This document shows, in pieces, positions 13,321 to 58,632 of a stretch of 64,000 nucleotides of DNA. Positions within the stretch are counted from its first letter, which is position 1. Each line of letters starts with the position of its first letter. The position numbers and the translations under genes are program-made. Source of the stretch: Naegleria gruberi (Eukaryota); the NCBI GenBank assembly GCA_000004985.1, contig GG738863.1; one strand, given 5' to 3'. A model generated the notes under the pieces. It was not told where the DNA came from, did no database searches, and saw nothing but the letters and a program-made list of their open reading frames with translations.

Positions 13321-15543
13321 TTAAGATTTGGACAGGAAAGTGTTCACCAGTTGACCATTTAATTGTGAACTGGAGAGGTTTGGTTCGAATAATTGTCTTG
13401 TTGAGGGATGGAGCATCTTGAAGGTTTCTTCACTAATATGCAATTGATTCATTCTACCATTTGCCTCAATAGAATTACACAGAGAAACTCCCTCACCAAA
13501 CAAATCAAAACTTTGCTTGAACTTTCCAACAACTGCTGCTGTAATATTGGTAGAGGTGTGAATTCCAATTCGGACACCAATCTTGTTAGGATAGTTCCCT
13601 CCACCCAGAAATGCTCTCTTTTCATTGAATTTCTCAATGGATTTAATCATTTCAAAGCCACACTTAACACATTGCTCTGCATGTTTCGGTTCGTCATAGG
13701 ATGAGCTATGATAAAGACCACCAGCTAGGAAATAGCAATCTCCAATGGTTTTAATCTTTTCCAGCTTGTTGGAGGAGCATAAATCATCAAAGTTTTCGAA
13801 TATATCATGGAGCATCTTGATAACACTTGTTGGATTCATGTCACTAGTCAATTTGGTAAATCCAACAATGTCACAATAGAGCAATGTACAACATACAATA
13901 GAGTCAATAACTTTCAGACCCATTGAAAGTCTTTGTGCAATGTTTTTAGGGAAAATTCGATCCGTTATTCTGGTCAATTGTTCCTCTTTCGTTGCAACCA
14001 TTCCAGTATCTCTAATGAATCCAATAAAGTGAGATTTTTGACTTTTTGGATCAATTACTTCTGAAATTCTGGTTTCTATTGAGAGAATTCGTCCACATTT
14101 CCCTTCTGCTTTGAGGAACCTTACACTGTCAATTACTTTTTTCTGACCAGTTCTCATGTATCTCTCTAAATAGTAATCGTGCTTTCTTCTATCTGAAGAG
14201 TTGCAAAGCATTTTAATGTTTTTACCGAGAACTTCATATTTCTGATAGCCAAAAACATTCACAGCCGAATGATTAAAAACCTGAATGATTCCTTCCTGGG
14301 TAATAGCAATGATTGGAATGACTGAAAGTTCAGTAATTGAATCACAAATAGTCTTGTTTTTCATAAGTTTCTCATCTTCTTCACTTGTTTTACATTGTTG
14401 AATGTAGAGACAGTAATGAATCGTGCCAGTTTTTTTAACGGTGACAACTTTACCGTGACAAGGGAATGATTTCTTGAGTACGTTTGAATAGCATGTGAGT
14501 TTTAAATCTCTTACCAAAAGCTTTCGTCTTCTTCTCGATCGTTCCTCTTTCCTTGCAATTGAATATGGCAATCCATGAGAGGCACAATGAGTTTCTGTTA
14601 TATCCCAAGAATTCAATGAACCAGTAAATCTTTCAATTTCCATCTGAATGTCCATAATTGACTGCTCATCCACATACTTTGAAAGATTTTCGCCTAGAGC
14701 CACAAATGAATGAATTCCAAATAATTTCTCAGATTCTGGATTTAAATACTCGATTTCAAACTTCTCATTGAATATAATGATAGGAAATCCACACAACATC
14801 ATTTGATCTATGGCAGAATTCAACTCCTCAGATTCTTCCTGCATGAGTGGTGCGTCATTTTCAGTATATCCATTCATTACACTTCCATACACTTGCAAAT
14901 CACTCACCAAATCGAATGCATCATGTGTATAATCAATTGCTTGTTCAGACTCTGCTTCTGTCTCACCTTCACAATATTCTGATTCGATTGTTTGTCCAAA
15001 ATTAGCAAGACCGTTCAGTAAATTATTAGAGCTTTGCAATCCTTTGAGAAGCCTGGACGAAAGTCCCTTCTTGAATCCTGCAGCCCTTTTCAGTGTTTGC
15101 ATTCCTTGCTCTCTACTCTGAACAGAGAGAAAACTTGCTCCACTTCTAGCAGAAGATTGGGCACTTTCACAACCCATATCTGTAGAGTTTAAATCAAGAA
15201 AGAGTGAGTTTTTCAATTCACCTGGTTTAAGGCAAATGGAGGCACTTGCAACAGCCATAGTTGAGTATTGTCTTCCGAGTTGAGTAGGTGGTTTTAGGAC
15301 TTTTCTTTTAGGAAAAAGAAGTGGTTCCTCTACTCCATACGTACTTGTAGCATCTCCATTATATTCTGAAGTTTCGCATGAAGATACAGAAATTGCAGAA
15401 TCATCGTCATCATCATTAAGAGAAATTGAAAAGCCAGAAGGTTTCGTAATAATGGTTGGACGACTGTAGGAGAAAGTCTGATACTCCAAGTCACCAGAAA
15501 TTGATTCTTGCTCCTCAACAAGCATTCGTTTCTTCATGATCAA
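13321..15543 (-). CDS. Class III nucleotidyl (adenylyl/guanylyl) cyclase with N-terminal PAS-like domains
   Basis: This is a single 740-aa ORF. The C-terminal cyclase homology domain reads YCDIVGFTKLTS...KIKTIGDCYFLAGGL...VRIGIHTS..AAVVG...FGEGVSLCNSIE. Two PAS-like segments lie upstream, and the N-terminus is acidic and Ser-rich. Confidence 0.8.
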   Translation of the reverse strand: MIMKKRMLVEEQESISGDLEYQTFSYSRPTIITKPSGFSISLNDDDDDSAISVSSCETSEYNGDATSTYGVEEPLLFPKRKVLKPPTQLGRQYSTMAVASASICLKPGELKNSLFLDLNSTDMGCESAQSSARSGASFLSVQSREQGMQTLKRAAGFKKGLSSRLLKGLQSSNNLLNGLANFGQTIESEYCEGETEAESEQAIDYTHDAFDLVSDLQVYGSVMNGYTENDAPLMQEESEELNSAIDQMMLCGFPIIIFNEKFEIEYLNPESEKLFGIHSFVALGENLSKYVDEQSIMDIQMEIERFTGSLNSWDITETHCASHGLPYSIARKEERSRRRRKLLVRDLKLTCYSNVLKKSFPCHGKVVTVKKTGTIHYCLYIQQCKTSEEDEKLMKNKTICDSITELSVIPIIAITQEGIIQVFNHSAVNVFGYQKYEVLGKNIKMLCNSSDRRKHDYYLERYMRTGQKKVIDSVRFLKAEGKCGRILSIETRISEVIDPKSQKSHFIGFIRDTGMVATKEEQLTRITDRIFPKNIAQRLSMGLKVIDSIVCCTLLYCDIVGFTKLTSDMNPTSVIKMLHDIFENFDDLCSSNKLEKIKTIGDCYFLAGGLYHSSSYDEPKHAEQCVKCGFEMIKSIEKFNEKRAFLGGGNYPNKIGVRIGIHTSTNITAAVVGKFKQSFDLFGEGVSLCNSIEANGRMNQLHISEETFKMLHPSTRQLFEPNLSSSQLNGQLVNTFLSKS

Positions 15544-16031
15544 TTATTGATGTTTTGAGGTTTTTTTAATAATACCGAATGACATTATCTGAAGTTTTTA
15601 AAAGTGGTGGCATGCAGATCTTCCTCAGATAGATATTTTTGCAGAAAGAGATAAGCAGGAAATTTTAATTACCCTTTTATATTAAAGTGAGGTTTCTTTT
15701 TGACTTTTTGTATTCTTAATCATGCCAGATCGTGAGATGAAAATTTTAAGGATTTGGCAATTATTGAAAAAAGACTTGATGTTATTTGACAAGATTTCAA
15801 AGTTGGCTCAATGGTTCAGCTAATTATCAAAGATTGTTGTTTGATTTCTTGTGTTGTTTCAAAATAAAGCACTTTAAAACACAAAAAAGTTGTTTTGCCA
15901 AATTGCTTAAAATCATGTGCGAAGCCAATCTCCAGACGTGGCATAGAATAAACCTTACTACTTGTTTGAATATTGGACTTGTCTTGGTAGAATCATATTA
16001 AAACGAAAGAAGTATTTGATTATGATTAAAT

Positions 16032-17267
16032 TTATTGCATTTTGGATGAAAGTAAAATGAATTGTTGGATAGTTTGGCTAACATCACCACCATTTTGTTC
16101 AAGAATATCAACAAGGGCTCTTTCATTAGTCATGCCCATATTGCTCAAAACGTCAAGTTGGAATTGATATTTTTCTTTAAGGGCATTGAATCTTTCATCT
16201 TCAAAGTCTTCTTCATCACTATCCTCATCATCACTATCGAATTCCCTAATATCATCAATCTTGAGATCTCTAACTTGTTGAATAGTTTGATCGACAGATT
16301 GTTGTTGTTGTTGTGGAGCTTCAGCAACTGGCAATGGATGAACAACTAAATCTAACCAGAAAGTATGTCCAAATTGAATATCACCAGAACACAATTTGAA
16401 ATATCCCTTAAGTGGGCCAAGTTTTCTTGGAATAAAAGTAACAGATACGTCCACTGATTGATTTGGACTAGCAACTGGAACATTAGAAGAAACAATTTGG
16501 AAAGGAAGAGCCTTGGAATCTCTACAATGTAATTGAACATTGGATGGCCAATTGGTTGAGCCAGGGTTGACAATCTTCCAAGTTTTGGTAATTTCTTGAT
16601 TAATATAAACTGATGATCCATCAGGCAAGTTGACATCAGAGGAAAATCTGGCAACAAAAGGAGTAGGTTGTTGAGAGGTATTAAGAGCTACAAAACCCAT
16701 AGAGTCTTCCATTACTGTAGCTGTGGTTGGATGAGTAGGTTGTTGTTGGGTTGTAACAGAAGAAGGTTGAATTAGAACAGGTTGAGGAGAACTTGATTTT
16801 GGTTGAATTGGTTGAGTTGGTTGGATTGGTGATTCAGGTTGTTTCTGTGGTGAGGATGGTTTTTGTGGAGTTATTGGTTGTGGTTGAATGGTTGCTGTTG
16901 GAGGTGTGGTAATTGGGATTTCCTTCTTTACTGGTTGTGTTGGTTGTTCCTTCTTCTTTGGAATAACCTTCTCCTTCAAAGTAACTTGCATACATGGTGT
17001 AGAGAAGGACTTTTTAGCATAGTTCCATTCATCTTCACTTGTTGTAACGATCAAATCATCTTCATTGTCTTTGTATTGAACAAGGTGAGTGGTAATATCG
17101 ATATTTAATTGGAATGCTTTGGAAACTTGTTGATAAAATTCAATCAATGTACAAGATGATGGCACGGAAAATCTTCTAATTGTATCATTGAGTTTGACTT
17201 TAACGGACAGTTGTTGAAAGACTCCATAGTTATTGTACATGATTTGTTGTGGATGAAACATTTTCAA
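16032..17267 (-). CDS. NBR1-like protein (PB1 domain, NBR1/FW-type Ig-like domain, C-terminal UBA)
   Basis: The N-terminal PB1-like fold reads VKVKLNDTIRRFSVP...YKDNEDDLIVTTSEDEW. A P/Q/T-rich linker follows. An NBR1-box-like beta-sandwich is present (WPSNVQLHC...GYFKL...FGHTFWLDLVV). An acidic stretch precedes a C-terminal UBA-like helix bundle (NERALVDILEQNGGDVSQTIQQFILLSS). Confidence 0.55.
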   Translation of the reverse strand: MKMFHPQQIMYNNYGVFQQLSVKVKLNDTIRRFSVPSSCTLIEFYQQVSKAFQLNIDITTHLVQYKDNEDDLIVTTSEDEWNYAKKSFSTPCMQVTLKEKVIPKKKEQPTQPVKKEIPITTPPTATIQPQPITPQKPSSPQKQPESPIQPTQPIQPKSSSPQPVLIQPSSVTTQQQPTHPTTATVMEDSMGFVALNTSQQPTPFVARFSSDVNLPDGSSVYINQEITKTWKIVNPGSTNWPSNVQLHCRDSKALPFQIVSSNVPVASPNQSVDVSVTFIPRKLGPLKGYFKLCSGDIQFGHTFWLDLVVHPLPVAEAPQQQQQSVDQTIQQVRDLKIDDIREFDSDDEDSDEEDFEDERFNALKEKYQFQLDVLSNMGMTNERALVDILEQNGGDVSQTIQQFILLSSKMQ

Positions 17268-17727
17268 TGATGATCGGTTGTTTTTCTTCGTTTGCTGCTT
17301 TTCACGTTTGTTTGCAATATTTGTCTCTTATCGGTTCAATCAAATAATAATTAAAATTGCTTTGGATCAAAATGAAGAAACGTGATGGCAGTTTTTTTCT
17401 TGTTGTGTTCTATTTTAATCCTCATACGTGATGCTGAGAAGAATTCCTTTCGAGGTTCATTGTGTTATTGGATTTAAATTAGAAGGTTACACATTTCCCT
17501 TCTCAACGTAAATCAATTCCTTCATATTTTGAAGATAAAACATTCAAATTCTCCAATCAAATTGATTTACAAGATGGATCATCAACATTAAATATTGTTT
17601 TACCTCTAGAAAATGCTGGAAATGAAAAAAATTAAAAAATATTTCATCACCAGCTATCGCATCATTCGTTTTCAAACTCTCTAATTTATTTAAAATTAAT
17701 ATTAAATAATTAATTGATTATTAGATA

Positions 17728-18999
17728 ATGCCTCCTCGTAAGAAAGTAGAACAACAAACAAGTTCTTTTGCTTGTCTTGAAAATATTTCGGAACATGAAA
17801 TTCAACAAATTGCTGTTAAAAAGAGGAGAGGACGGCCAAAAACAAAGCCTTCTATTTATGCCGATTTTCCAATTGCTGATTGTATGGGAAGAAATTGGAT
17901 TTTGAGTAATGAAAGTGAATTGAGAAGCAAAGTAGATTCATTCCGATTAGTGTGTTATAATATGCTTTGTCAAGACTATGCAAAGAAACCATACTTTCCA
18001 CACTTGTCGGATACCACTGAAATTTTGAGTTGGATTAATAGAAAGCATAGATTATTGGATGAATTTTTAAGCTATCATGCTGATATTATTTGTTTACAAG
18101 AAGTTGATAGATATGGTGATCATTGGAGGGAAAGATTATTAAAGAATGGATATGAATCAACTTATACTCAAAGAACAGGTGGTAAACCTGATGGTTGTGC
18201 CACATTTTGGAAGAGTGAAAAGTTTGAAAGTATTAGAAATATACCAATTTTATTCAATGATGTAGCAAGACAAATTACGAAAAATAGTGAATTGGAAACT
18301 CATGAAAAGTGTGATTTGAATGGAAATGTAGTGACCAGTTCTAATTCAATTTCCAAGTTTCTGACTAATAATGTGGCTAATCTAACACTCCTCAAACATA
18401 GATCAAGTGAAAAGTTGGTTTGCGTTGTGAATTTACACTTGTTTTGGGATCCTTCATTCCCTGAAGTTAAATTATGCCAAATATTTTACACTATGAAACA
18501 GACAAAGGATTATCTCACTTCCCTATCACTTGAGGATATTCAAATATTCTTTTGTGGTGATTACAACTCAATGCCAGATAGTGAAGTTTATGAATTTTTA
18601 ACAAAAGGTCAGACCTTTATTCCAGGACACTTGATTCCATTTTATGCAGACTCTGACTTTAAAGATAGTATTTCTCTAGTTGAGTGTGAGAATGATGATG
18701 GTGAAAAAACTTTCAAACACCAAATTACCAATCCATTTGGGACTGCAACGAGTTTATACAAAGCTGTATGTGGAGATGAACCAACATTCACCAATTATAC
18801 CAAAAATTTTAAGGGATGTTTGGATTATGTGATGGCTTGTAATTATCCTACCAGTGGTGAAGAAAAGGGTATTCTTGTCAGTCGAGCATTACAAATACTC
18901 ACAGAAGAGCAAGCATCTGAGTTTGAAGCTCTTCCTTCGATCAAGAATGCCTCAGATCACATTTCCCATGCATTCGATTTTGACATTATGAAACTATAA
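17728..18999 (+). CDS. Endonuclease/exonuclease/phosphatase-family deadenylase (CCR4/nocturnin/angel-like) with N-terminal AT-hook
   Basis: The 423-aa ORF has an AT-hook (KKRRGRPKTKP). The EEP catalytic core reads YNMLCQDYA...IICLQEVDRY...GKPDGCATFWK...CVVNLHLFWDP...FCGDYNS...DYVM. Confidence 0.7.
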   Translation: MPPRKKVEQQTSSFACLENISEHEIQQIAVKKRRGRPKTKPSIYADFPIADCMGRNWILSNESELRSKVDSFRLVCYNMLCQDYAKKPYFPHLSDTTEILSWINRKHRLLDEFLSYHADIICLQEVDRYGDHWRERLLKNGYESTYTQRTGGKPDGCATFWKSEKFESIRNIPILFNDVARQITKNSELETHEKCDLNGNVVTSSNSISKFLTNNVANLTLLKHRSSEKLVCVVNLHLFWDPSFPEVKLCQIFYTMKQTKDYLTSLSLEDIQIFFCGDYNSMPDSEVYEFLTKGQTFIPGHLIPFYADSDFKDSISLVECENDDGEKTFKHQITNPFGTATSLYKAVCGDEPTFTNYTKNFKGCLDYVMACNYPTSGEEKGILVSRALQILTEEQASEFEALPSIKNASDHISHAFDFDIMKL

Positions 19000-19005
19000 A
19001 TCAAC

Positions 19006-20349
19006 TCATACCAAGACCCTCTCTTCACTAATTTGTACAGAATTCATTGAATGAACATCTGTTGCTGTATCAATATTGAGATAAATATTGGTATTAGTGT
19101 CAGAGGCACGAATGGTTCCATTATTTTCAACTCTTGAAATTTCAAATTGTGGAGGTGGTTCATTCATTGAAATTAAATGAAGTTTTTGAGTCTTTCCACC
19201 TTCAATTTCACAAGTTCCTAGAAATCGTATCGTACAAACTTCGTCCAATATTGAAGCTGTTGTTCCATCACAAATTATTCCACTCTCTAAATGATCGATA
19301 GCATAATAACAATGAGCAATAGATGAATTGATTAATTCCCCATACAATCCAAAATGTCTTCTAAAATCCGATCCAACACTAGCTCTGTAACCATAACCAC
19401 TTGCAAATCCAACACCATCGACCTCTAAATTCTCCCTATGAATTAGTTCTTTCAAACAGTGAATTACTAATGAAGGATTGGACTCTGCCATATGTCGTTC
19501 AAAGCTCAATATAAATTTTAGACTCTTTCTATCAAAGAACATATCAAGAACACAACAGTTATATTGCTCTGAAACAACTTGAATAGAATTGACAATATTA
19601 TTCTTTGTTGCNNNNNNNNNNNNNNNNNNNNNNNNNNNNNNNNNNNNNNNNNNNNNNNNNNAATTAATTATATTCATTAATTTAGCTGTAGACAGAGGAG
19701 TGTTTGTTCCGAAAGTTTGAAGAGGAGCCATTAATTGTTTCCTCTTTCTAATAGTTGCATTTACCTGCTTAATAATCCTTTTCTTTTGAATTTTTGAATT
19801 AGATTTGAACCATTTTGCATCCTTTACAGTGTCTTGCAGATCTTTCTTTTTAGCCATTAATTCCATAGTATCACTAGGAGAAGCATTTACTATTAATGAA
19901 TTTAATGGAATACATTTTGCTCCCAAAATTTTCAATTGATTCTTTTTGGAAGTAACCTTGTCAGCTTTACGTTTTAGAACTAGAACACTTCTTTGATTAT
20001 CATCATGAGCAATAATGGAATAGGTTTGATTTTTTCTACTTGCAATCAGTGTTTCGAATGGAACAGTTTCAATATGTTGTAATTCTTCCTTTCTGATTTT
20101 ATAATTTTTAACCTTTTTAATTTTGTCAATGCATAGGGCAACATATTTTCTCTTCAACCATTGAAATACTCTATTACAACAAAATCCTTGATGAATGTGT
20201 TTCTTTAATTCTTTGGATGCAAGATTTCTTCCTGTTTTATTCAATAAAAAAGCTCTGTACCAACGTTTCTTGTTGTGAGTTGTTTGACAGCAAACACAAA
20301 CAGTTCCTTTATCAATTAGTTGTGTTGATCGTGATGACAACTTACACAT
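19006..20349 (-). CDS. Hypothetical protein (ORF interrupted by a 50-N assembly gap)
   Basis: The 447-aa ORF spans the gap at 19612..19661. The N-terminus is Cys-rich (CVCCQTTHNKKRWY...CCNR). I recognise no confident family. Confidence 0.35.
   Translation of the reverse strand: MCKLSSRSTQLIDKGTVCVCCQTTHNKKRWYRAFLLNKTGRNLASKELKKHIHQGFCCNRVFQWLKRKYVALCIDKIKKVKNYKIRKEELQHIETVPFETLIASRKNQTYSIIAHDDNQRSVLVLKRKADKVTSKKNQLKILGAKCIPLNSLIVNASPSDTMELMAKKKDLQDTVKDAKWFKSNSKIQKKRIIKQVNATIRKRKQLMAPLQTFGTNTPLSTAKLMNIINXXXXXXXXXXXXXXXXXATKNNIVNSIQVVSEQYNCCVLDMFFDRKSLKFILSFERHMAESNPSLVIHCLKELIHRENLEVDGVGFASGYGYRASVGSDFRRHFGLYGELINSSIAHCYYAIDHLESGIICDGTTASILDEVCTIRFLGTCEIEGGKTQKLHLISMNEPPPQFEISRVENNGTIRASDTNTNIYLNIDTATDVHSMNSVQISEERVLV
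19612..19661. other. Assembly gap (50 N)
   Basis: A run of exactly 50 N. Confidence 0.99.
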
Positions 20350-20699
20350 TTTTTTCCCAAGTTTTTCTTTCTGACAGTTCTAGAGAAAATTAGAATAATT
20401 TGTGCAAATTTTATTTTTAGCAACCAGCTAAAAAAACTGAGCTGAAAATTCCTCATTGCTTTCTTTACCTTTTTTCTCAATAACCAGAGAGAGAACTGCG
20501 GAGAACTGCAAGATTTGGATTGTTTACATCAAATAATAGTGATAATGGTAAGATCAGTTTCTAACTCGTGTTTCTGTACGTTTCCAACAGAGTTAAAGTT
20601 AAGGTAAATTACGCTCAGAAACAGCTGGTAAATTTCCACTTTTTTCCATTATTTTTTAAAAAAAACACAAGTTTATGCTGTAGCAAAGGACATCCGATA

Positions 20700-21161
20700 C
20701 ACGAGTACCTCTAGAAAATGCTGGAAATGAAAAAATTAAAAAATATTTCATCACCAGCTATCGCATCATTTGTTTTAAACTCTCTAATTTATTTAAAATT
20801 AATATTAAATAATTAATTGATTATTAGATAATAGATAATGCCTCCTCGTAAGAAAGTAGAACAACAAACAAGTTCTTTTGCTTGTCTTGAAAATATTTCG
20901 GAACATGAAATTCAACAAATTGCTGTTAAAAAGAGGAGAGGACGACCAAAAACAAAGCCTTCTATTTATGCCGATTTTCCAATTGCTGATTGTATGGGAA
21001 GAAATTGGATTTTGAGTAATGAAAGTGAATTGAGAAGCAAAGTAGATTCATTCCGATTAGTGTGTTATAATATGCTTTGTCAAGACTATGCAAAGAAACC
21101 ATACTTTCCACACTTGTCGGATACCACTGAAATTTTGAGTTGGATTAATAGAAAGCATAGA
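20700..21161 (+). repeat. Near-identical duplicate of 17560..18045 (promoter plus first 108 codons of the EEP deadenylase gene), ending at an assembly gap
   Basis: By eye, more than 95% identical to 17560..18045, with small indels in the upstream AT-rich part. ORF 20838..21160 encodes the same MPPRKKVEQQTSSFACLEN...WINRKHR as 17728..18048, then runs into the N gap. Confidence 0.85.
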
Positions 21162-21211
21162 NNNNNNNNNNNNNNNNNNNNNNNNNNNNNNNNNNNNNNN
21201 NNNNNNNNNNN
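21162..21211. other. Assembly gap (50 N)
   Basis: A run of exactly 50 N. Confidence 0.99.
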
Positions 21212-22630
21212 GTTTTGCTTTCAATACCATACAGTACATTTCTGTTCATGAACAGGTAGAGAGCATTTGCAAAAGTGTAATGGAAGGAAACAGAGTCAAG
21301 TGGATGAGAAGAAATATCCCTCGAAAGTGATGTAACTTGAAATAAATTAGGTGATTCCTCATTAGCCCTCAAAAATTGCCTACACTTTTCAAATATATCA
21401 CCACTAATATAAACATTACCTTGTTTACACTCTTTCAACAATTCCCTAACCCTTAGTAAAACTTCCCCTCCGAAAATTCTCAACCATTGAGATCCAAAAC
21501 CTCCCAAATGATAGGAAGTACACTCACCCACATTAATAACACATTTCACCTCCAATGGTGTGTCATTTGATTTGTAAGTTTTCAAATTGGTCATGGTTTG
21601 AATTTTAATTCCACATTTTACAGCTGCAAGAATTGAATCTGTGAAAGTTCTATCCATCCTAGGTGAGTAGAATTGACAAATAATCAAATCTCCTTGAAAT
21701 TTTTCAATATCTCCACCCATTTCATATATTACAGCAATTAAACTAGTGTACACATAGTAGATATATCTTGATATTTCAGAAACGTTGCAAGTATCCTTTT
21801 CATGATAGAAGGAGTCCACAATTTTTGAAAATCCTTTCATTTCAATAAGTAATATACATGTTTCATAGGAAAATTCACTCACAGGTGAGAGTAACTTCAT
21901 CTTTTCCTCTTCCACTGGTTTGATAGATGAAGTAGAACCATTTTGCTTGTATTTCTTCCACAAATTAATTCCAGGACTTGATGATTTCTTCTTATTATTT
22001 ACCAAAGCTCCTCTTACTAGGTGATGAAGATCTACTATTAGAATCACTATTATTTACAACATTATTATTAGGGATTGGTGATGTTGGACCAGGTGGTAGT
22101 GAAGGAGAATGTGGACGGTCAGATCCCTTATTAGAAGCAGATCCAGTACTAACAGAGAGAAAACTAGAGAATTTACTCTCTGTATCGAGACCTTCATTGG
22201 AATTTGTTTTCTGAAGGTGATGTCCTAGCTTTACCTTATATTGTTTACCCTCGCCTCCATAATATATATATCGGAGGCAATATAGTAAATGTTGAGGAAG
22301 GAAGGAGGTTGACAATTCGAGATTTAATTCCTCCTGTGATTTGGCCTTGGAAGGTGATACAGATTGATAATTATTCAAGCCAATAAAGCTCACTCTAGCA
22401 TTGGGTATTCGGAAGGAGCTTGCCTTCTTCATCTCTGCTGAGGCTCTCACTTGAATATTCTCAAATTCCTCACTGGTGATGGAGGTTCTTGATAGCTTGT
22501 CCCTTCCAAATTGAAACTTGGGCGAGAATGTATTAAGGGAGTGATGGCCACCTTGTGTTGTTGTGATGGATTTGCTGAGAGAAATGTGATCACCGCCCTG
22601 CTTATGAGAAGAGCTACAGATAGCTCCCAT
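21212..22630 (-). CDS. Class III cyclase paralog (N-terminal region plus first cyclase domain), truncated by gap; possible pseudogene or partial copy
   Basis: The protein starts MGAICSS, an N-myristoylation consensus. It is collinear with the N-terminus of the downstream sAC-like gene: SFRIP, FLPQHLLYCL, ETCILLIEMKGFS, IYEMGGDIEKFQGDLIICQFYSP, AAVKCGIKIQ. A frame change between ORFs 21995..22630 and 21145..22047 indicates an intron or frameshift. The 3' part is lost in the gap. Confidence 0.6.
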
Positions 22631-22981
22631 TTTAATAAAAATTTGTTGGTAGTGATAAAAACGTTATTTCTTATGCCCATCCAATGAACAAATTAGTGCA
22701 TTATTTGTTAGACCGTTGTGATGAACTTAAAGGAAAAGGAAACAGTAAATAGTAGTACCAAGGATAGTCTTACTCAATACTCCTTCTCACAGAATTATAA
22801 ATTGTTTTCTGGTATTGGAACTGCAAAGAACAGCTCCAAGAGTGAAATACTCATGAGTTGGTACTCTTTCCCATTTCCTTCTTGCTTTCGACACTACTTG
22901 AGATGGGTAAGTGAAACAGGGTTTTAACTTAATATTATTTTCCAAATCGGTATGCATGATGAATTAATAAAGATAGTCCAA

Positions 22982-25900
22982 CTACTGCTTAATTATCTTA
23001 TATCTTTCATTCAAAGATTGGATTGATTCGTGTTGTTCAATGTAATTTTCCATAAGATAATCCATATCTGAAATAATATCTGGAAGTTTGTCTTCTACAT
23101 ATTTCAGTCCTTTCGATATTAAATAATGATAGCAGTCGTACATGTCCAGAAGAATTCTCAACTTGACACCATGCGCTGATTGAGAAGAAACAAATTGCAG
23201 TGCATCAGAGTAGGATTTTTCAACATTAGGATAGCATTCTTCGAAAGATGCCTCAAGCAATGAGCACTTGATTAGAAGAAATCTGGATTGCAATCTCAGT
23301 ATTTCTCCTAATAAATTTTCTTGATGTGATGCTAGTGCATTCTTGAAGAGTGTCTCTGTATGTTCAAGATACGGAACATCAGTACCAATTTGGATACTAT
23401 CTAGGAATTCCAAATACTTGACCCGAGACTCTAAAATTGCATAATCGAATATTAAGCTTGGAGGTGCATAAATGTGAAGAGAGTTAAAGAGAGATTCCAT
23501 GTGATCAGCTTGTTCCCTTAACCGTTGCTCTTTCTCTACAATATTAATTCCAGACGTTAACTCTCTGCAAAATTGGACATAGGCAAGATAAAACTTGGCG
23601 CTTAATACTTGGGTTGGACTTGCCACAGTTGTTGAAAATATTGAAATGATGCTCATTCCTTGATTAGCTGATCTCTCTAGCTCATCCAATTGACCACTAA
23701 TTAATAAATAGTAGCAAGCAAATGAGTAAAAGAACATGTAAGAAGGGAGGTGAAGTCTGACCCTGCTCTGTTCAGATCCCAAAGTGTAGTATTTTGATGC
23801 ACTCTCATATTTACCAACAGACCACAAAGCCCGCATCGAGTAGGTACAAGATACAAGCAAAGCATCCCTTTTTCTGAACCTATTAATGGACTGTTGATGA
23901 TACTTGTCGGGATCGCTCAAATACTGATTGATAACATCTTCAGAGAAGAGAATTACCTTATTAAAATTACCCCTGGTGTTGTGAGTCATCATGCAAGATA
24001 CAGAACCAAACATTTGCTGTGTAGTATCTCCTATTTCTGTTGATAAATTAATGAGGTTTGAACTCAATACTATTGCTTCATCTGTCTTGTTCAAGTAAAA
24101 AGCCATGAACCATCTCTCAGATTCAATAGAAAAGATCAACTCTTTCTCTGATTCTGGGCAATACAGTTTTGCTTTGGTTAATGCTTCCTCACCAGTCGGC
24201 ATCAAATTTGCGTCAAACAAATTCTCAATAAATATTCCAAATTTGAGTAGACTCTTTGCAAGTAAGATTTTAACACTCAAAAAACTGAGACCCAAAATGG
24301 AAAAAGTTGAAGAAATTCGTGTTATCCCTTCAAATCTCTTTCTGGTAATATCAATCAGGGAGAGAACTGACTCGAAAACGTTCAGCTTTGTAACATCTAA
24401 TAGGTCGGTGTACTTGACTTCTTCATTTCCTTCCTTTTCTCCTTTCCACAATGTTACAATTTTCTCCAATATCGTATTAAATGAAACACAAAGATGCTTG
24501 AAAACAGAAGCTTCCTGCTCTTGGCTCAATAGAGTGATAGCTTTTGGAATTATAACACACGCCAATGCTAAATGAAGCATTTCCTCCTTTTCTACTGATC
24601 CTAGCGAGAGGGTTTCCTCTAAAGCAATCTTATCAAAATAGTGGCCTAAATGAACGGCGATTTCCTTAATATACCACGAGGATCGTTCTCTACTTTTGTG
24701 TCTTCTACATTGTTGCTCAATTGTCTTGATAAAGTGTTTGGCAAGAGACATGTGAAATTCTCTCTTTTGCTCTTTGGGAGTAGTGGAATACACAATCTGT
24801 AGCATCATGGAAGATTTGAATTTGAACGTTCTGTCCTTACTTGATGAACAAGCAAGAAAATGTTTACCCTTTGTCTCCTCAACCACTTCTAAAAACTGAT
24901 GACTGCCAACAAGATTCTTCAAAATATCTGATAATTTTCTGTCCTTTTTCACATTTGATTCCTTTGGGAATATTGCTTCAAGAGTCTCAAAATCGAATTG
25001 GATTCCAATCGAAGATGCAACTTTCAGAACAAGTTGAGAGTCAACATCCAATCTGTCAATCTTTTGTTGAAAGAACGAAGACATTGTGGCAGGCAATTCA
25101 ATCGTATCCATAGTCGTAAATTTAAACTTGAGGCAGCCATCTTCTACATAAGTTCTTCCATTTTCTTGTAAAAAGTGAAGGGCCATTGTTAAAAACTGTT
25201 GATTTCCCTCTGTTTTTTCGACGAAAATGTCTAAAACCTTTGGATCGACTTTTGAAGCATTAAAATAAAGCTTTAAGTATTCTTCACATTCAGACTTGGT
25301 GAACTCTTTAAGGTCGATTACTAAGTCAGCCTTAGCCTTCCACTCATCAAGCTCTTTTCTCTTCTCCGCCATTTGTGGTCCATCTGGAAGCTCGTTACAG
25401 GAAAGCAACAATACACAGTTGGTAATTCCTGGCTCAAGGTCCAAAATTTTTTTCGTAACAATCCTTGAATAGGGGTCAAACTGCATTGTAAAATGGAAAT
25501 CGTCATATAGTAGAAACCAAGGTTGTGCTGAATACCCCATATACATCCAAGAAATAGAAAGCAATCTAGCGAAAAGATCAGCAGCGATGGTAATTCTCTC
25601 CTCCTGATCCAGTTTAACACTATCTTTCGACTCTTTAAACTCGGTACCTACAACTGGGTTCAATAAGTATAAATTGTCACGATCTTTTTCTTCTTTGAAA
25701 GTTTCCAACATTATTTCTTCTCTTTGTTCTCTACTAATATTGTTGTAAAGATTTTCAACATCATTATAATCTAAATCCAATCCGTTCTTCTTATAAAAAC
25801 GTTCAGTAATGCTAATCTTCAGGTTTCCTAGATAGAGATAAAATGGAGTTTCGAACTCAATAGCTGAATTATAAACACAGGCAAGTTTTGATTTCAATTC

Positions 25901-27935
25901 GCTCACTAATCTTCTCAAAAGGTCAGATTTTCCAACACCATTTTCTCCTTTCACAAAAATTATCTTGGTCTTTGTTTTCTTACCCTGTTCTATTTCTTGC
26001 TGTTTTTCATTAACATATCCACAAATACTATCAAATATTTCCTCTCTTCCAATAGGATATTTGAGAGAATTCAAATGCTCAGAGCCACTGTAACTTTTCT
26101 TACCAGATGATTCAGAATGGTCTTCTGTCATAATTTGTGAAGGAGATTTCTTAATGTTATAATACATTTGAGTTGAAGAGATTGATGAGTCTTTGACCTT
26201 CCAAATTTTTATCAAATCTGATTTTCCCTTCACCTTGATTGGCTCTAGTGGTTCTATTGGAATACCCTTCAACATTTGAGCTGTCTCCTCTTCACATAAC
26301 ACAACTCCATCATTTTTTTCTGATTCCTTCATTAAACGGGCAGCCAAATTTACCTTATCACCATAAATAGTAAACTCCTTTCTATATTCTGACCCACTGA
26401 TACAGATTATTAAGGTTAAATAAATATAAACATACACATTTCCAATAAAACACTTTCCACTGGCAATTCCCAATCCAAACTTCATTCCTAGTTGAGATAA
26501 ATTGCCTGACAGTTCAATACCTGCCTTCACTGCTCTAATGGAATCACTGATATGACTAACAGGATAACCAAAAGAAAATACAAGAATAGTACCCTTTTCA
26601 TCCGACAACATGTTTGCAATAAAACCCTCATAAGTTTCCAATACGCCTTGAACGTTTGTTAAATATGTTTGATACACTTGCATTTCATCATCTTTTGTTT
26701 CGTACTTGTTTGTATCAATAATGGACAAGAACCCCACTGTGAGAGGTTTGACTTCATTGATCCATTCACTTTGTCCTGCATCTATCTTGTTTCTAACAGG
26801 TGGGCTAATAAATTTACGAAGTATTGGAATAAAGGTTGAGTTCACTGTTAGAATGGGTAATGATAGTCCAGTAATGGGCTCCCTTTTTGATGCCAGAGCT
26901 ACATACACATCTGCCTCTTTGATTTCTAACTTTCTACAAGTGATATAATTGGAACATTTTTCAAATGCTGGCCTGGTTATCACAACTTGTCCTACCAGAC
27001 TATTACCCAAAGCGGAGGACATTTCGAGAAGAGCTTGGCCAGAAGTGATTCGAAGCCAGTAATCATTCACTCCCAAATGGTGCGTCGTTACATATCCCAA
27101 AGACACACCACAATGTATCTGAAGTGATATGTTATCATTCACCTTGAAAGATTTCAAATATTCAGTCTGCTGAATTCGCAAGGCACATTGAACAGCCGCA
27201 ATTACACACTCAGCCAAAGTTCTATCCTTACGTGGGTAATGGAATTGACAAATAATAGCCTATAGATTTCATTCAATAAAAAAGTTCTTAAGCAACTTAC
27301 ATCTCCTGCAAATCGTTCGATATCTCCTCCAAACTTTGCATGTTAATACTTTGCGCAATTATCCTACTTACATCATAAATAAAGGCAATTAATGTCGTAA
27401 AATATTGATTAATATATTTAGTAAGAAGCTCAGCTCCATTAGGTTCTTTTGAAAGGCTCTCTGTTAAATTAGTAAATCCAGAAATGTCAATCATTAAAAT
27501 ACAGGTTTCATATGTTATATTACTAAGTGGAGACATTGTTGTTGACATTTCTTCCTCCAATGCCTTTGATTTCCTATCATTTACATTACTATTATTATTG
27601 CTCTTGTAATAGAGAGACTTGAGATTATACAACAAATGTTGAGGTAAATAAGAACAAATTATTTCCGCATTAACCTCCTCCGTTGTTTTTTTTCCATTTC
27701 CAAAAGGTATTGTTTTAAATCCCATCAAATTCACTCGGGGAGGAGGAAGTTTGAAAGAGTGTGCCTTACGAACCTCCACCACTTTCGTTTCTGACTCCGA
27801 GGAAGCATAAGAATCTTTTGATACTCTCCTTTCCGAATATCTAATTGATTTATGTTGATTAAAATCTTTTGGTGATTCTTGTTGATTAGGACTAACAACA
27901 TTCTCACTGCTGTTCAAGCTGCAAGCAGATCCCAT
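22982..27935 (-). CDS. Soluble-adenylyl-cyclase-like protein: two class III cyclase domains, STAND P-loop NTPase, long alpha-helical (TPR-like) C-terminal region; about 1600 aa
   Basis: Exon 1 (27360..27935) starts MGSACS, a myristoylation consensus, and encodes the cyclase C1 domain (ETCILMIDISGFTNL). A 33-nt micro-exon (FGGDIERFAGD) sits between introns of about 38 and 41 nt. The 4.2-kb main exon 22982..27217 continues C1 (AIICQFHYPRKDR...AAVQCALRIQ). It contains a second cyclase domain (IASGKCFIGNV...EFTIYGDKVNLAARLM), a Walker A motif (FVKGENGVGKSDLLRRL), and a very long helical repeat region. Confidence 0.8.
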
Positions 27936-28585: not shown

Positions 28586-29671
28586 ATGGTGGGGATAGGA
28601 ACCTTATTGGCCGCACTTGCAATGTATATTGGCTGTTCTTTCCAAAGTAACACTACGATTCAACAGAATAGATTTTCGGATGATAAGATTGTGAGACTTA
28701 ACAACACTTTTTATGAAGAGAAGAGGTTCTTCTTTACTCCCAAAATTAAGGAGACTAAATTTCTTCATGCCTACAAAGAAGCAATCGGAGAAATGAAACA
28801 ATGTCAAATTGATACAAAATTGTTGAGGTACTTTTATGGAGAGAGTGGTATTGGTAAAACAACAATGTTACATGAAGTGTTGAAAGATTCGAAACCTTTT
28901 CCATATACTCTTTTGAGGTTGGAAAGTGGAAACTCTTGGAAAGAAGTTGGAGTGAAACTAAACATTACATCCATAAATGAGCATGCTACAGAAGAACTTG
29001 TGTTTAGAACCTTAACAGAATACTTTAACTATTTGAATAGTGATGATTGTCCTTTAATTATTATTGATGGTGCTAATAGAAACCCAAAGATTACTAATAC
29101 CTTCATTGCTTTCTGGAGAGATATTAGTCATGTTAGACCTTTTGCATTGTTAATGATCTCCTCTGATGGCTTCTACCCCTCAATTTCAAGAGGTGGTGGT
29201 AGAGTGATCGGAACAGAACTCTCTCCATCCGAAACCTTTGTCAGAGAATATTTGGAAGCTAAAGGAATTGTTGATCCTTCTCTTGTTTCAGAAATTATGG
29301 AAATAACAGGTAACAAGATAGTTTACTTGAGTTCAATAAGATCACCAAGAGAACTTAATATCTTGGAACAAACTGTATATGAAAACTTTGAAGAGAACTT
29401 GATGGAATTGAAAAGATTCGATATGGCTTTCCAGTACTTTAAAAATTTAGTGAAAGTTTTGCTAGAAAATCCCCAACAAAGCATGGCCGCATTAGATGTA
29501 GTTCCTGACAAGGAAGCAGCCAAGATATTTAAATCCAACTTGTTGAGAAGGTATGGGCAGGATTACAGATTCCAAAACAAGGCGGTTGAAAGATTCTTTA
29601 AAAGAAAGTGGAAAATTAATAGTGAAGGACTATTGAAATTGAATATAACGGGAAGGACTGTGTCTGAGTAG
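28586..29671 (+). CDS. Membrane-anchored P-loop NTPase (AAA/STAND-like), hypothetical
   Basis: The 361-aa ORF has an N-terminal hydrophobic segment (GIGTLLAALAMYIGC). Walker A reads FYGESGIGKTTMLHEV, and a Walker B-like motif reads CPLIIIDGANR. Confidence 0.45.
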   Translation: MVGIGTLLAALAMYIGCSFQSNTTIQQNRFSDDKIVRLNNTFYEEKRFFFTPKIKETKFLHAYKEAIGEMKQCQIDTKLLRYFYGESGIGKTTMLHEVLKDSKPFPYTLLRLESGNSWKEVGVKLNITSINEHATEELVFRTLTEYFNYLNSDDCPLIIIDGANRNPKITNTFIAFWRDISHVRPFALLMISSDGFYPSISRGGGRVIGTELSPSETFVREYLEAKGIVDPSLVSEIMEITGNKIVYLSSIRSPRELNILEQTVYENFEENLMELKRFDMAFQYFKNLVKVLLENPQQSMAALDVVPDKEAAKIFKSNLLRRYGQDYRFQNKAVERFFKRKWKINSEGLLKLNITGRTVSE

Positions 29672-58550: not shown

Positions 58551-58632
58551 TTGCACGACTCCAATAAACAACTTTCCCGCCAAAAAATACTACAATCTCA
58601 AACTCTAACTTTGAAAAAAATATCTCGACTAA

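What the first reader, a model, noticed from the sequence alone, without database searches (positions are those of the whole stretch)
13321..27935. Cluster of three class III nucleotidyl cyclase genes, including one with the soluble-adenylyl-cyclase (sAC) architecture
Three minus-strand genes encode class III cyclase homology domains. The first is a PAS-cyclase (13321..15543). The second is an N-myristoylated partial paralog (21212..22630). The third is a roughly 1600-aa protein (22982..27935) with an N-myristoylation motif, two cyclase domains, a Walker-A STAND NTPase (GENGVGKS) and about 900 aa of helical repeats. That domain order is the one known from mammalian ADCY10/sAC and Dictyostelium sGC. 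The two myristoylated genes are clear tandem paralogs, collinear over at least 250 aa. Whether each protein makes cAMP or cGMP, and whether any is bicarbonate-sensing, cannot be read from the sequence.
Basis: partly seen in the sequence, partly recalled or inferred. Interest (0 to 1): 0.7.

Follow-up and report, generated by a model that had tools for sequence, protein, structure and literature searches.

The report
Naegleria sAC-type cyclase gene cluster
This stretch of the Naegleria gruberi genome carries a PAS-domain cyclase gene and a tandem pair of genes related to mammalian soluble adenylyl cyclase; it is a real but unsurprising member of a known enzyme family, with some gene-model and assembly errors worth fixing.

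Summary
The window is Naegleria gruberi nuclear DNA.

- **Gene 3 (27935..22982, minus strand):** three 38-41 nt introns, 1611 aa. Its order is an MGxxCS acylation motif, C1, C2, a P-loop STAND NTPase and about 600 aa of TPR-like solenoid. Its best solved relative is human ADCY10 (E 1.6e-30, both domains collinear). The catalytic residues are intact. The bicarbonate pair K95/R176 is Arg/Ser, and the adenine-reading Lys334 is Asn.
- **Gene 2:** it is not intrinsically partial. Its 3' third (a degenerate C2) lies at 19611..19006. It is separated from the 5' part by two 50-N gaps and a 1.5 kb piece that looks mis-scaffolded. An intact allele encodes 710 aa, C1-C2 only. The predicted fold matches human sAC, but the catalytic residues are degenerate (D47E, K334D, T405G, R416A).
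- **Gene 1:** an already annotated 738-aa PAS-cyclase. It has the metal Asp pair and the Lys/Asp pair, but it lacks the transition-state Asn and Arg.

The public model of gene 3 omits an 11-aa micro-exon that carries the second metal Asp.

Verdict: new members of a known family in a published genome. Interest is modest. Product, regulation and lipidation remain untested.

The parts
13321..15537 (-). Gene 1: 738-aa PAS-PAS-cyclase (annotated N. gruberi 'predicted protein', P0264)
   Evidence: There is no coding sequence upstream, and the start is MKKRM. It is 100% identical over 100% of its length to P0264.
14008..14337 (-). Gene 1 PAS domain (ORF residues 403-512). A weaker PAS_4 hit lies at residues 253-307.
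   Evidence: Pfam PF00989, 65.3 bits, E 6e-18.
13396..13899 (-). Gene 1 class III cyclase domain. It has both metal Asp residues, Lys (EKIKTIGD) and Asp (FDLFG). The catalytic Asn is replaced by Ser and the catalytic Arg by Ser (GEGVSLCNSIE).
   Evidence: PF00211 scores 135 bits. The best PDB matches are tmAC C1 domains: AC9 C1 gives 91 bits and AC9 C2 gives 45 bits, and the residues were read from those alignments. The N. fowleri orthologue also lacks Asn and Arg.
21212..22630 (-). Gene 2, 5' part: MGAICS acylation motif, disordered N-terminal region, and C1 domain up to the start of the C1-C2 linker. It carries a 2-nt deletion at about 22014 relative to the intact allele. A 67-nt GT..AG intron at 22057-21991 could bypass the resulting frameshift.
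   Evidence: tblastn with gene 3 gives E 6.8e-41. C1 matches class III cyclases directly (CyaB 2.7e-6, sAC 7e-4).
19006..19611 (-). Gene 2, 3' part: degenerate C2 domain and stop codon (…EERVLV*)
   Evidence: tblastn with gene 3 aa 399-516 gives E 3.9e-5. This part is 99.4% identical to the 3' part of contig L001, which carries the intact 710-aa gene.
19612..21211 (.). Two 50-N assembly gaps (19612-19661 and 21162-21211) flanking a 1500-bp foreign piece that replaces 94 nt of gene 2
   Evidence: The N runs were found. The piece 20349..19662 (minus strand) encodes the first 229 aa of P0123, a protein from another scaffold (98% identity). The piece 20706-21161 is 97.6% identical to window 17601-18051.
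22982..27935 (-). Gene 3 (NAEGRDRAFT_66608, 'FM146'). Exons: 27935-27372, 27333-27301, 27259-26436, 26396-22982. Product 1611 aa.
   Evidence: The public 1566-aa model is 97% identical. The N. lovaniensis orthologue retains both segments that the public model omits.
27918..27935 (-). Gene 3 N-terminal MGSACS: predicted N-myristoylation (Gly2) and S-palmitoylation (Cys5) motif
   Evidence: MG[AS]xCS starts all five Naegleria family members, although their N-terminal regions are otherwise divergent.
26948..27509 (-). Gene 3 C1 domain (aa 143-303, spanning introns 1 and 2). It carries the metal-binding Asp residues equivalent to sAC D47 and D99.
27301..27333 (-). Micro-exon FGGDIERFAGD. It holds the D99-equivalent metal ligand and is absent from the public gene model.
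   Evidence: The motif is conserved in N. lovaniensis (FGGDVEKFSGD) and in human sAC (FGGDILKFAGD).
26210..26821 (-). Gene 3 C2 domain (aa 346-536, spanning intron 3). The residues equivalent to Asn412, Arg416 and Thr405 are present. The Lys334 equivalent is Asn.
24806..26065 (-). Gene 3 STAND NTPase module (aa 585-1004): Walker A GENGVGKS at 25925-25948, Walker B LLYDD, helical arm and winged helix
   Evidence: BLASTP against the AAA_16 regions of bacterial homologues gives E about 1e-20. G-x-G-K is invariant in 44 sequences. The AF2 model shows an alpha/beta NTPase. The top Foldseek hit is a STAND-TPR protein, 6mfv, E 1.8e-8.
22985..24811 (-). Gene 3 C-terminal all-alpha TPR-like solenoid (about aa 1003-1610)
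   Evidence: hhalign against the TPR regions of bacterial homologues gives probability 96%, E 2e-9. The AF2 model has about 25 helices, mostly at pLDDT 85-97. Foldseek hits include APC TPR subunits, LGN and MalT domain III.

Best explanation
The region holds a tandem pair of soluble-adenylyl-cyclase-family genes and an unrelated PAS-cyclase gene. They sit in an ordinary stretch of Naegleria gruberi chromosome.

Gene 3: a catalytically competent sAC-type cyclase
- Shown: C1 and C2 lie in one chain and are collinear with human sAC.
- Inferred by homology to sAC: the two domains fold into a pseudo-heterodimer with one active site. C1 supplies the two metal-binding Asp residues. C2 supplies the Asn and Arg that stabilise the transition state, and the Thr that contacts the base.
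- Shown as an architecture: a P-loop STAND NTPase and a TPR-like solenoid follow.
- Inferred from STAND proteins in general: this module acts as a nucleotide-dependent regulatory or oligomerisation switch.
- Inferred from a conserved MG[AS]xCS motif: the N-terminus is myristoylated and palmitoylated. The enzyme would then be membrane-tethered rather than soluble.
- Inferred from residues: the mammalian bicarbonate pair K95/R176 is Arg/Ser, so bicarbonate activation by the mammalian mechanism is unlikely.
- The product is unassigned, because Lys334 is Asn. I lean slightly to cAMP. From my own recollection, most assayed family members are adenylyl cyclases.

Gene 2: the diverged downstream tandem copy
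- It is a 710-aa C1-C2-only protein with an sAC-like predicted fold. Four catalytic positions are changed.
- It is most likely a non-catalytic or very weak pseudo-cyclase.
- In this assembly it appears broken by a mis-scaffolded 1.5 kb contig.

Gene 1: a PAS-regulated class III cyclase subunit
- It has the metal ligands and the Lys/Asp pair typical of adenylyl cyclases, but it lacks Asn and Arg.
- As a homodimer it should be weak. It may need a partner subunit that supplies these residues.
For: - Organism and annotation: gene 3 matches N. gruberi NAEGRDRAFT_66608 at 97%. Gene 1 matches an N. gruberi protein at 100%.
- sAC relationship: human ADCY10 is the top solved relative, with both domains collinear. 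Each domain passes PF00211 alone.
- Residues: searches give the table, read against the functional residue list in PMC12867704 Table 1 and PMC12250328. Gene 3 has D/D/N/R/T intact, K95 to R, R176 to S, and K334 to N.
- NTPase and TPR: homology to AAA_16-containing bacterial proteins, E about 1e-20. G-x-G-K is invariant. hhalign to the TPR regions gives 96%. The AF2 model has mean pLDDT 82, and its top fold hit is a STAND-TPR protein.
- Acylation motif: conserved in gene 3, gene 2, P0002, P0003 and P0122.
- Gene 2: the intact allele is P0121 on contig L001. The AF2 core has pLDDT 80-97, and the top 24 PDB fold hits are all human sAC. Its residues are E/D/G/A. The paralog P0122 shares the same pattern.
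- Tandem pair: N. lovaniensis also has a long form followed by a degenerate second copy.
- Gene 1.
Against: - No transcript, protein or enzymatic data were available. The splice model of gene 3 rests on homology and GT-AG boundaries only.
- The P-loop region of gene 3 does not reach any Pfam gathering threshold on its own.
- Asn at the Lys334 position is not the sAC state, so activity and product are uncertain.
- In this assembly gene 2 has a 2-nt deletion in addition to the inserted piece. It could be a true pseudogene in this strain.
- The N. lovaniensis downstream copy keeps an NTPase region and has different degenerate residues. Orthology with gene 2 is therefore unclear, and the K95/R176 retention in gene 2 is not general.
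- Lipidation is a motif-based prediction.
- The proximity of gene 1 may be coincidence (about 4-5%).
Confidence: 0.75

Rival explanations
1. Gene 3 is a guanylyl cyclase like Dictyostelium sGC, not an adenylyl cyclase. It would have the same architecture and mechanism, with cGMP as the product.
For: - The adenine-reading Lys334 of sAC is replaced by Asn in gene 3, in its N. lovaniensis orthologue and in its N. gruberi paralog.
- The paralog P0003 is named 'guanylyl cyclase' in NCBI and UniProt.
- From my own knowledge, unverified because the paper was not held: Dictyostelium sGC shares this domain order and makes cGMP.
Against: - The Glu/Cys pair of canonical guanylyl cyclases is absent. The pair here is Asn/Thr.
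- Thr405, which contacts adenine in sAC, is conserved.
- The database name is probably similarity-derived, not experimental.
- From my own knowledge: an Asn at this position is compatible with adenylyl cyclase activity in M. tuberculosis Rv1900c.
Confidence: 0.35
2. Gene 2 is a dead pseudogene in this strain. It would be disrupted by a real 1.5 kb insertion and a frameshift, rather than being an intact gene broken by assembly error.
For: - There is a 2-nt deletion at about 22014 relative to the intact allele.
- A 1.5 kb foreign segment lies between the two halves.
- No N. gruberi reference protein matching gene 2 was returned.
- The catalytic residues are already degenerate.
Against: - The foreign piece is bounded exactly by two N-gaps. 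It carries a 97.6% copy of the nearby gene's 5' end. This is the signature of a repeat-driven scaffolding error.
- The flanking halves are 97-99% identical to an uninterrupted 710-aa ORF in a related strain.
- The paralog P0122 (51-54% identical) keeps the same length and residue pattern, which indicates purifying selection on this protein type.
- The frameshift can be bypassed by a GT..AG intron of 67 nt.
Confidence: 0.25
3. The three genes form a functional cyclase island. They would be co-regulated or physically interacting. For example, the Asn/Arg-less PAS-cyclase or the pseudo-cyclase would pair with the sAC-type enzyme.
For: - Three cyclase-domain genes lie on the same strand within 15 kb.
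- Two of them lack complementary subsets of catalytic residues.
- A third cyclase this close is expected only about 4-5% of the time.
Against: - Two unrelated genes, an NBR1-like gene and an exo/endo-phosphatase-family gene, lie between gene 1 and gene 2.
- tblastn with gene 1 found no match in the 25 kb N. lovaniensis locus around the orthologue. Only one other window gene matched there.
- Eukaryotic gene order rarely encodes function.
- sAC-type enzymes are intramolecular pseudo-heterodimers and need no partner.
Confidence: 0.1

Closest known systems
Mammalian soluble adenylyl cyclase (ADCY10/sAC), full-length isoform
   Same: - It has tandem C1-C2 class III catalytic domains, then a P-loop NTPase and TPR-like helical region.
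- It is the best solved-structure match for gene 3 (E 1.6e-30, both domains collinear).
- The equivalents of metal Asp47 and Asp99, Thr405, Asn412 and Arg416 are conserved.
- The N-terminal 'LPxxLL' helix before C1 is also conserved.
   Different: - The bicarbonate-binding pair K95/R176 is Arg/Ser here.
- Lys334 is Asn, and the PPi-receptor Lys144 is His.
- The protein begins with a predicted myristoylation/palmitoylation motif, which the alignment shows no counterpart for in sAC.
- There is about 120 aa of disordered N-terminal extension.
- Activity and regulation are untested.
Non-mammalian metazoan sAC (sea urchin, salmon), regulated by pH rather than bicarbonate (PMC12867704)
   Same: One or both residues of the K95/R176 pair are replaced by neutral residues, while the catalytic residues stay intact. 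The N. gruberi, N. lovaniensis and P0003 long forms show the same pattern.
   Different: Those enzymes keep Lys334 (Table 1). Naegleria has Asn. No pH data exist for Naegleria.
Dictyostelium soluble guanylyl cyclase (sGC/SgcA)
   Same: From my own knowledge: it has the same sAC-type domain order in a protist and is partly membrane-associated. The N. gruberi paralog P0003 is named 'guanylyl cyclase' in databases.
   Different: Residue-level comparison and orthology were therefore not tested.
Bacterial CHD-CHD-AAA_16-TPR proteins (cyanobacteria, Chloroflexota, Verrucomicrobiota and others)
   Same: They are collinear over about 55-60% of gene 3, with E about 1e-60 to 1e-76. They share both cyclase domains, the NTPase and the TPR region. 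Microcoleus P0006 even shares the Asn/Thr pair.
   Different: They have no introns, no acylation motif and no N-terminal extension. Their NTPase and TPR regions pass Pfam thresholds, whereas those of Naegleria are too divergent.
Truncated sAC isoform (sACt, C1-C2 only) and CHD pseudo-cyclases (for example PDB 6yii, a class III cyclase-like ATP-binding protein)
   Same: Gene 2 and P0122 consist of C1-C2 only. The predicted fold matches the human sAC catalytic core (TM 0.72). The non-catalytic CHD protein 6yii is also among the fold hits.
   Different: sACt is a highly active splice or proteolytic product of the same gene (my own knowledge). Gene 2 is a separate gene with D47E, K334D, T405G and R416A.
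Transmembrane adenylyl cyclase C1 domains / PAS-linked class III cyclases (for gene 1)
   Same: The cyclase domain of gene 1 scores best against tmAC C1 domains. Like them, it has the two metal Asp residues but no catalytic Asn or Arg.
   Different: It also keeps the C2-type Lys and Asp. It is a single-domain soluble protein with two PAS domains, so any partner subunit is unknown.

Membership tests
sAC/ADCY10-type cyclase (tandem CHD + STAND NTPase + TPR): gene 3 | Two class III cyclase homology domains in one chain, C1 then C2, collinear with sAC | tested here: met
   phmmer against the PDB: sAC ranks first, with C1 at 50.4 bits and C2 at 57.0 bits. PF00211 gives 27.9 and 40 bits for the isolated domains.
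sAC/ADCY10-type cyclase: gene 3 | C1 metal-binding Asp pair (D47, D99), C2 Asn412 and Arg416, and Thr405 | tested here: met
   All five are conserved. The D99 equivalent lies in the micro-exon that is missing from the public model.
sAC/ADCY10-type cyclase: gene 3 | Lys334, which recognises the ATP base | tested here: not met
   It is Asn in gene 3, P0002, P0003, P0004 and P0005.
Bicarbonate-activated sAC (mammalian mechanism): gene 3 | Lys95 and Arg176 bicarbonate-binding pair | tested here: not met
   Arg and Ser in gene 3. Lys/Ala in N. lovaniensis. Lys/Gly in P0003. The residue roles come from PMC12867704 and PMC12250328.
sAC/ADCY10-type cyclase: gene 3 | P-loop STAND NTPase after C2 | tested here: met
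   Pfam alone is below cut-off (AAA_16 20.8 bits against 32.6). However, BLASTP to AAA_16-bearing homologues gives E about 1e-20. Walker A G-x-G-K is invariant. AF2 shows an alpha/beta NTPase, and the top fold hit is the STAND-TPR protein 6mfv.
sAC/ADCY10-type cyclase: gene 3 | C-terminal TPR-like helical repeats | tested here: met
   There is no Pfam TPR hit. hhalign to the TPR regions of bacterial homologues gives probability 96%, E 2e-9. The model shows an all-alpha solenoid, with TPR and MalT-III fold hits.
sAC/ADCY10-type cyclase: gene 3 | Cyclase activity and identity of the product (cAMP or cGMP) | not testable with these tools
   This needs an enzyme assay.
N-myristoylated / dually acylated proteins: genes 2 and 3 | N-terminal M-G-x-x-x-[S/T] with a nearby Cys; actual lipid attachment | tested here: inconclusive
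   The motif is present and conserved in five paralogs and orthologues. The modification itself cannot be tested in silico.
Class III cyclase homology domain: gene 2 | Match to PF00211 or to known cyclases, and a cyclase fold for both domains | tested here: met
   There is no Pfam hit. C1 matches CyaB at 2.7e-6 and sAC at 7e-4. The whole C1-C2 is collinear with gene 3 at E 1.9e-57. The AF2 model's top 24 fold hits are human sAC.
Catalytically competent class III cyclase: gene 2 | Metal Asp pair, substrate-contact residues, and Asn and Arg | tested here: not met
   D47 to E, K334 to D, T405 to G and R416 to A. The paralog P0122 has E, D, G, S, and N412 to K.
Class III cyclase with PAS sensor: gene 1 | PAS fold plus PF00211 domain | tested here: met
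   PAS 65 bits and Guanylate_cyc 135 bits.
Self-sufficient homodimeric class III cyclase: gene 1 | Each monomer supplies the metal Asp pair, the Lys/Asp pair, and the transition-state Asn and Arg | tested here: not met
   Asn is replaced by Ser and Arg by Ser. The N. fowleri orthologue has Glu and Leu at these positions.

The most novel reading that the evidence does not exclude
Naegleria's sAC-type cyclases may not be soluble. Dual acylation (myristoyl-Gly2, palmitoyl-Cys5) would tether them to the plasma or flagellar membrane. This fits the 'FM146' label of gene 3, which I recall stands for the flagellar-motility gene set.

The short C1-C2 paralogs (gene 2 and P0122) would be catalytically dead. 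They keep the sAC anion pocket (Lys95, Arg176, Lys144). They could therefore act as lipid-anchored ligand (bicarbonate or anion, or ATP) sensors or regulators rather than as enzymes.
Probability: 0.15. Interest if true: 0.55.

Novelty: new member of a known kind. Interest (0 to 1): 0.3.

Why it matters
**Evolution of sAC regulation.** sAC-family enzymes link CO2/bicarbonate or pH to cAMP and control sperm flagellar motility in animals. A recent paper shows that bicarbonate control is restricted to mammals (PMC12867704). A deeply branching amoeboflagellate gives an outgroup for how regulation and substrate choice evolved in this family. It has intact catalytic residues, no bicarbonate pair, Asn in place of Lys334, and a predicted lipid anchor.

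**Practical corrections.**
- The public N. gruberi model of this gene lacks the exon that carries a metal-binding Asp. Automated surveys would therefore score the protein as inactive.
- The neighbouring paralog is missing from the annotation, apparently because of a scaffolding artefact.

None of this changes the general picture, since Naegleria is already known to have about 80-100 cyclases.

Tried and rejected
**Look-ups and searches that returned nothing**
- The look-up of encoding contigs for P0001 and P0123 found nothing on record. The reference annotation around the genes and the source locus of the inserted piece could therefore not be read.
- The Naegleria genome paper and Roelofs et al. 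2001 on Dictyostelium sGC are not held. The meaning of 'FM146', the figure of 108 cyclases and the sGC residues rest on memory.
- Literature searches for Naegleria with sAC, and for the gene id or FM146, found nothing relevant.
- phmmer of the gene 3 C-terminal 1029 aa against PDB sequences gave no hit. Pfam gave nothing for gene 2. Profile and fold methods were needed instead.

**Readings considered and rejected**
- Bacterial contamination or recent horizontal transfer of gene 3. Against it: three spliceosomal introns, eukaryotic neighbours (G-alpha, DEAH helicase, PI3K, RPL3), and orthologues in N. lovaniensis with partial synteny.
- ORF 19006..20349 as a single fourth cyclase gene. It is a chimera of a P0123-like 5' fragment and the 3' end of gene 2, read through a run of N.

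**A splicing question**
- Simple GT..AG introns that would fix the frame of gene 2 near 22017 were examined by eye. Only the 67-nt candidate at 22057-21991 restores the frame. The related strain has no intron there.

Full report
**Source and setting**

The window is about 34% GC. It carries short spliceosomal introns and ordinary eukaryotic genes: G-alpha, a DEAH helicase, an alpha-2-macroglobulin-like protein, an NBR1-like protein, a Vps34-type PI3K and RPL3. The spliced product of the largest gene is 97% identical to Naegleria gruberi NAEGRDRAFT_66608, named 'Uncharacterized protein FM146'. Gene 1 is 100% identical to another N. gruberi protein on the same 467,654-bp scaffold. This is therefore published N. 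gruberi nuclear DNA. The genus is reported to encode at least 81 cyclases (PMC9928731) and 50-80 PAS proteins (PMC10468136).

**Gene 3 (27935..22982, minus strand)**

*Gene model*
- These introns flank an 11-codon micro-exon, FGGDIERFAGD.
- A third intron, 26435-26397, is in-frame and hidden inside the long ORF.
- The product is 1611 aa.

*Errors in the public model*
- The public 1566-aa model skips the micro-exon.
- It also removes 34 residues of the C1-C2 linker.
- Both segments are present in the N. lovaniensis orthologue, in the N. gruberi paralog P0003 and in the short paralogs. They also align to human sAC.
- The public model is therefore very probably wrong. It deletes one of the two metal-binding aspartates.

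*Cyclase domains*
- C1 scores 27.9 bits and C2 scores 40 bits against PF00211 when tested alone. The cut-off is 21.9 bits.
- Against all PDB sequences, the best hit is human ADCY10 (E 1.6e-30).
- C1 residues 143-303 match sAC 40-199. C2 residues 346-512 match sAC 265-431.

*NTPase and helical region*
- After C2 comes GENGVGKS. This region alone fails Pfam's thresholds (AAA_16 20.8 bits against 32.6).
- It aligns at E about 1e-20 to the AAA_16 regions of bacterial homologues.
- The Walker A G-x-G-K is invariant in a 44-sequence alignment.
- The C-terminal region matches the TPR region of the bacterial homologues by profile-profile comparison (probability 96%, E 2e-9).
- An AlphaFold2 model of residues 585-1611 (mean pLDDT 82) shows three parts: an alpha/beta NTPase, a helical arm with a winged helix, and about 600 aa of paired helices.
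- Its best PDB fold match is a STAND-TPR protein (6mfv, E 1.8e-8). Cdc6/ORC ATPases, TPR proteins and MalT domain III follow.
- The sAC domain order is confirmed.

**Residues of gene 3**

I used the functional residue list for human sAC in PMC12867704 (Table 1) and PMC12250328, together with a MAFFT alignment.

| sAC position | Role in sAC | Gene 3 |
|---|---|---|
| D47, D99 | metal ligands | Asp, Asp (kept) |
| T405 | contacts the base | Thr (kept) |
| N412, R416 | transition state | Asn, Arg (kept) |
| K95 / R176 | bicarbonate pair | Arg / Ser |
| K334 | reads the ATP base | Asn |
| K144 | pyrophosphate receptor | His |

- The Naegleria long forms share the loss of R176: Ala in N. lovaniensis and Gly in P0003.
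- They also share Asn at position 334.
- At position 334 other family members have Lys (some bacteria), Asn (Microcoleus) or Gln (other eukaryotes).
- In metazoan sAC, neutralising K95 or R176 abolishes bicarbonate sensitivity, and such enzymes are pH-regulated.
- By analogy, gene 3 should not be bicarbonate-activated by the mammalian mechanism.
- The product cannot be assigned.

**Acylation motif**

Gene 3, gene 2, the N. lovaniensis orthologue, P0003 and P0122 all begin MG[AS]xCS. Their N-terminal regions are otherwise divergent, and that of P0121 is predicted disordered. This is the consensus for N-myristoylation with an adjacent palmitoylatable Cys. Its conservation argues that it is functional. 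The modification itself is a prediction.

**Gene 2**

*Extent of the gene*
- tblastn with gene 3 also finds a C2-like segment at 19593..19246.
- A protein search returned P0121, an uninterrupted 710-aa protein from a 3.2 kb metagenome contig, L001.
- L001 is collinear with window 22909..21212 (97.4% identity) and 19611..18253 (99.4% identity). Only 94 nt lie between the two blocks.

*The interruption in the window*
- In the window those 94 nt are replaced by a 50-N gap, 1500 bp, and another 50-N gap.
- The 1500 bp encode the first 229 aa of P0123, an unrelated N. gruberi protein from another scaffold.
- They also contain a 97.6% copy of the 5' end of the neighbouring exo/endo-phosphatase-family gene at 17601-18051.
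- A small repeat-bearing contig placed between two gaps is most simply a scaffolding error.
- The window also has a 2-nt deletion at about 22014 relative to L001. This may be a real frameshift, a sequencing error, or bypassed by a 67-nt GT..AG intron.

*Nature of the protein*
- The intact protein is C1-C2 only.
- It gets no Pfam hit.
- It is collinear with the gene 3 catalytic region (E 1.9e-57).
- Its C1 matches bacterial cyclases and sAC directly.
- Its AlphaFold2 core (pLDDT 80-97) has human sAC as its top 24 PDB fold matches (E 1.8e-23, TM 0.72).
- Four catalytic positions are changed: D47E, K334D, T405G and R416A.
- Lys95, Arg176 and Lys144 are kept.
- The 702-aa N. gruberi paralog P0122 shows the same pattern.
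- An exhaustive search of 1.84 billion representatives found only three close relatives, all from Naegleria.

*Comparison with N. lovaniensis*
- There the long form is also followed by a second sAC-like gene with degenerate catalytic residues. That copy retains an NTPase region.
- The tandem arrangement is therefore old. The downstream copy is free of catalytic constraint.

**Gene 1**

- The annotated 738-aa protein has a strong PAS domain, a weaker upstream PAS domain and a 135-bit cyclase domain.
- Its cyclase domain resembles tmAC C1 domains most.
- It has both metal aspartates, Lys (EKIKTIGD) and Asp (FDLFG). This pair is typical of adenylyl cyclases.
- The transition-state Asn and Arg are both Ser. 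The N. fowleri orthologue has Glu and Leu there.
- A homodimer would therefore lack two catalytic residues. It is either a weak enzyme or needs a partner. This is inference.

**Is it a cluster?**

- Genes 2 and 3 are tandem duplicates.
- Gene 1 belongs to a different subfamily. Two unrelated genes separate it from gene 2.
- tblastn with gene 1 found no match in the 25 kb N. lovaniensis locus.
- With 81-108 cyclases in about 41 Mb, another cyclase within 10 kb is expected about 4-5% of the time.
- I treat the third gene as a probable coincidence.

**Comparison with known systems, and verdict**

- The long form is a member of the sAC/sGC family, which has many bacterial relatives of the same architecture.
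- It fails two sAC-specific features: the bicarbonate pair and Lys334.
- It adds a predicted lipid anchor.
- The short form resembles the sACt isoform in domain content, but it looks like a pseudo-enzyme.
- The genes lie in a published genome, and two of the three are annotated. No paper describing them was found.

This is a new member of a known kind, and its interest is modest. The useful outputs are a corrected gene 3 model, the recovery of gene 2, and the residue-level predictions.

Noticed in passing
window 19662-21161 (between N-gaps 19612-19661 and 21162-21211): A 1.5 kb contig sits inside gene 2. It carries the first 229 codons of P0123, a 1123-aa Cys-rich N. gruberi 'predicted protein' with a weak ARID hit. 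It also carries a 97.6% copy of window 17601-18051. It is probably a mis-scaffolded copy of a paralogous locus.
   Followed up: partly
window 27260-27371 and about 26840-26950 (gene 3): The public model NAEGRDRAFT_66608 (1566 aa) omits the micro-exon FGGDIERFAGD and 34 aa of the C1-C2 linker. The paralog P0003 model also lacks residues after 'FAGD' (…EKFAGDGQNKS…), so it may be mis-spliced at the same place.
   Followed up: partly
window 7306-12693 (minus strand): A 1795-aa ORF with Big_5 (bacterial Ig-like), MG2, MG4, A2M bait-region and A2M domains. This is an alpha-2-macroglobulin-like protein with a bacterial-type N-terminal domain in a protist. A single N lies at 7498.
   Followed up: no
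window 16032-17267 (minus strand): An NBR1-like protein with PB1 and NBR1 Ig-like domains, a Pro/Gln-rich linker and an acidic C-terminus. It lies between gene 1 and gene 2.
   Followed up: no
window 17728-18999 (plus strand): An Exo_endo_phos family gene that converges on gene 2, with only 6 nt between the two stop codons. Its 5' end is the duplicated segment found in the inserted contig.
   Followed up: partly
window 28586-29671 (plus strand): A 361-aa AAA_22 / ATPase_2-type P-loop protein, transcribed divergently from gene 3. It was not characterised.
   Followed up: no
window 30001-34494, 35401-37479, 58551-62591: Three large ORFs (1497, 692 and 1346 aa) with no Pfam match at E<=1e-5. ORF 35401-37479 has a syntenic counterpart upstream of the N. 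lovaniensis sAC-like gene (L002 6823-8304).
   Followed up: partly
L002 16323-20184 (N. lovaniensis): The tandem downstream sAC-like gene is split into several small called genes in the annotation (92, 188 and 1032 aa). Its cyclase residues are strongly degenerate (D47 to K, D99 to E, R416 to Q), yet it keeps a GEKGLGKT P-loop.
   Followed up: partly
window 697-2001 (minus strand): This mechanical ORF combines the C-terminal part of a G-protein alpha subunit with an F-box-like domain. It probably merges two genes or exons and needs a proper gene model.
   Followed up: no
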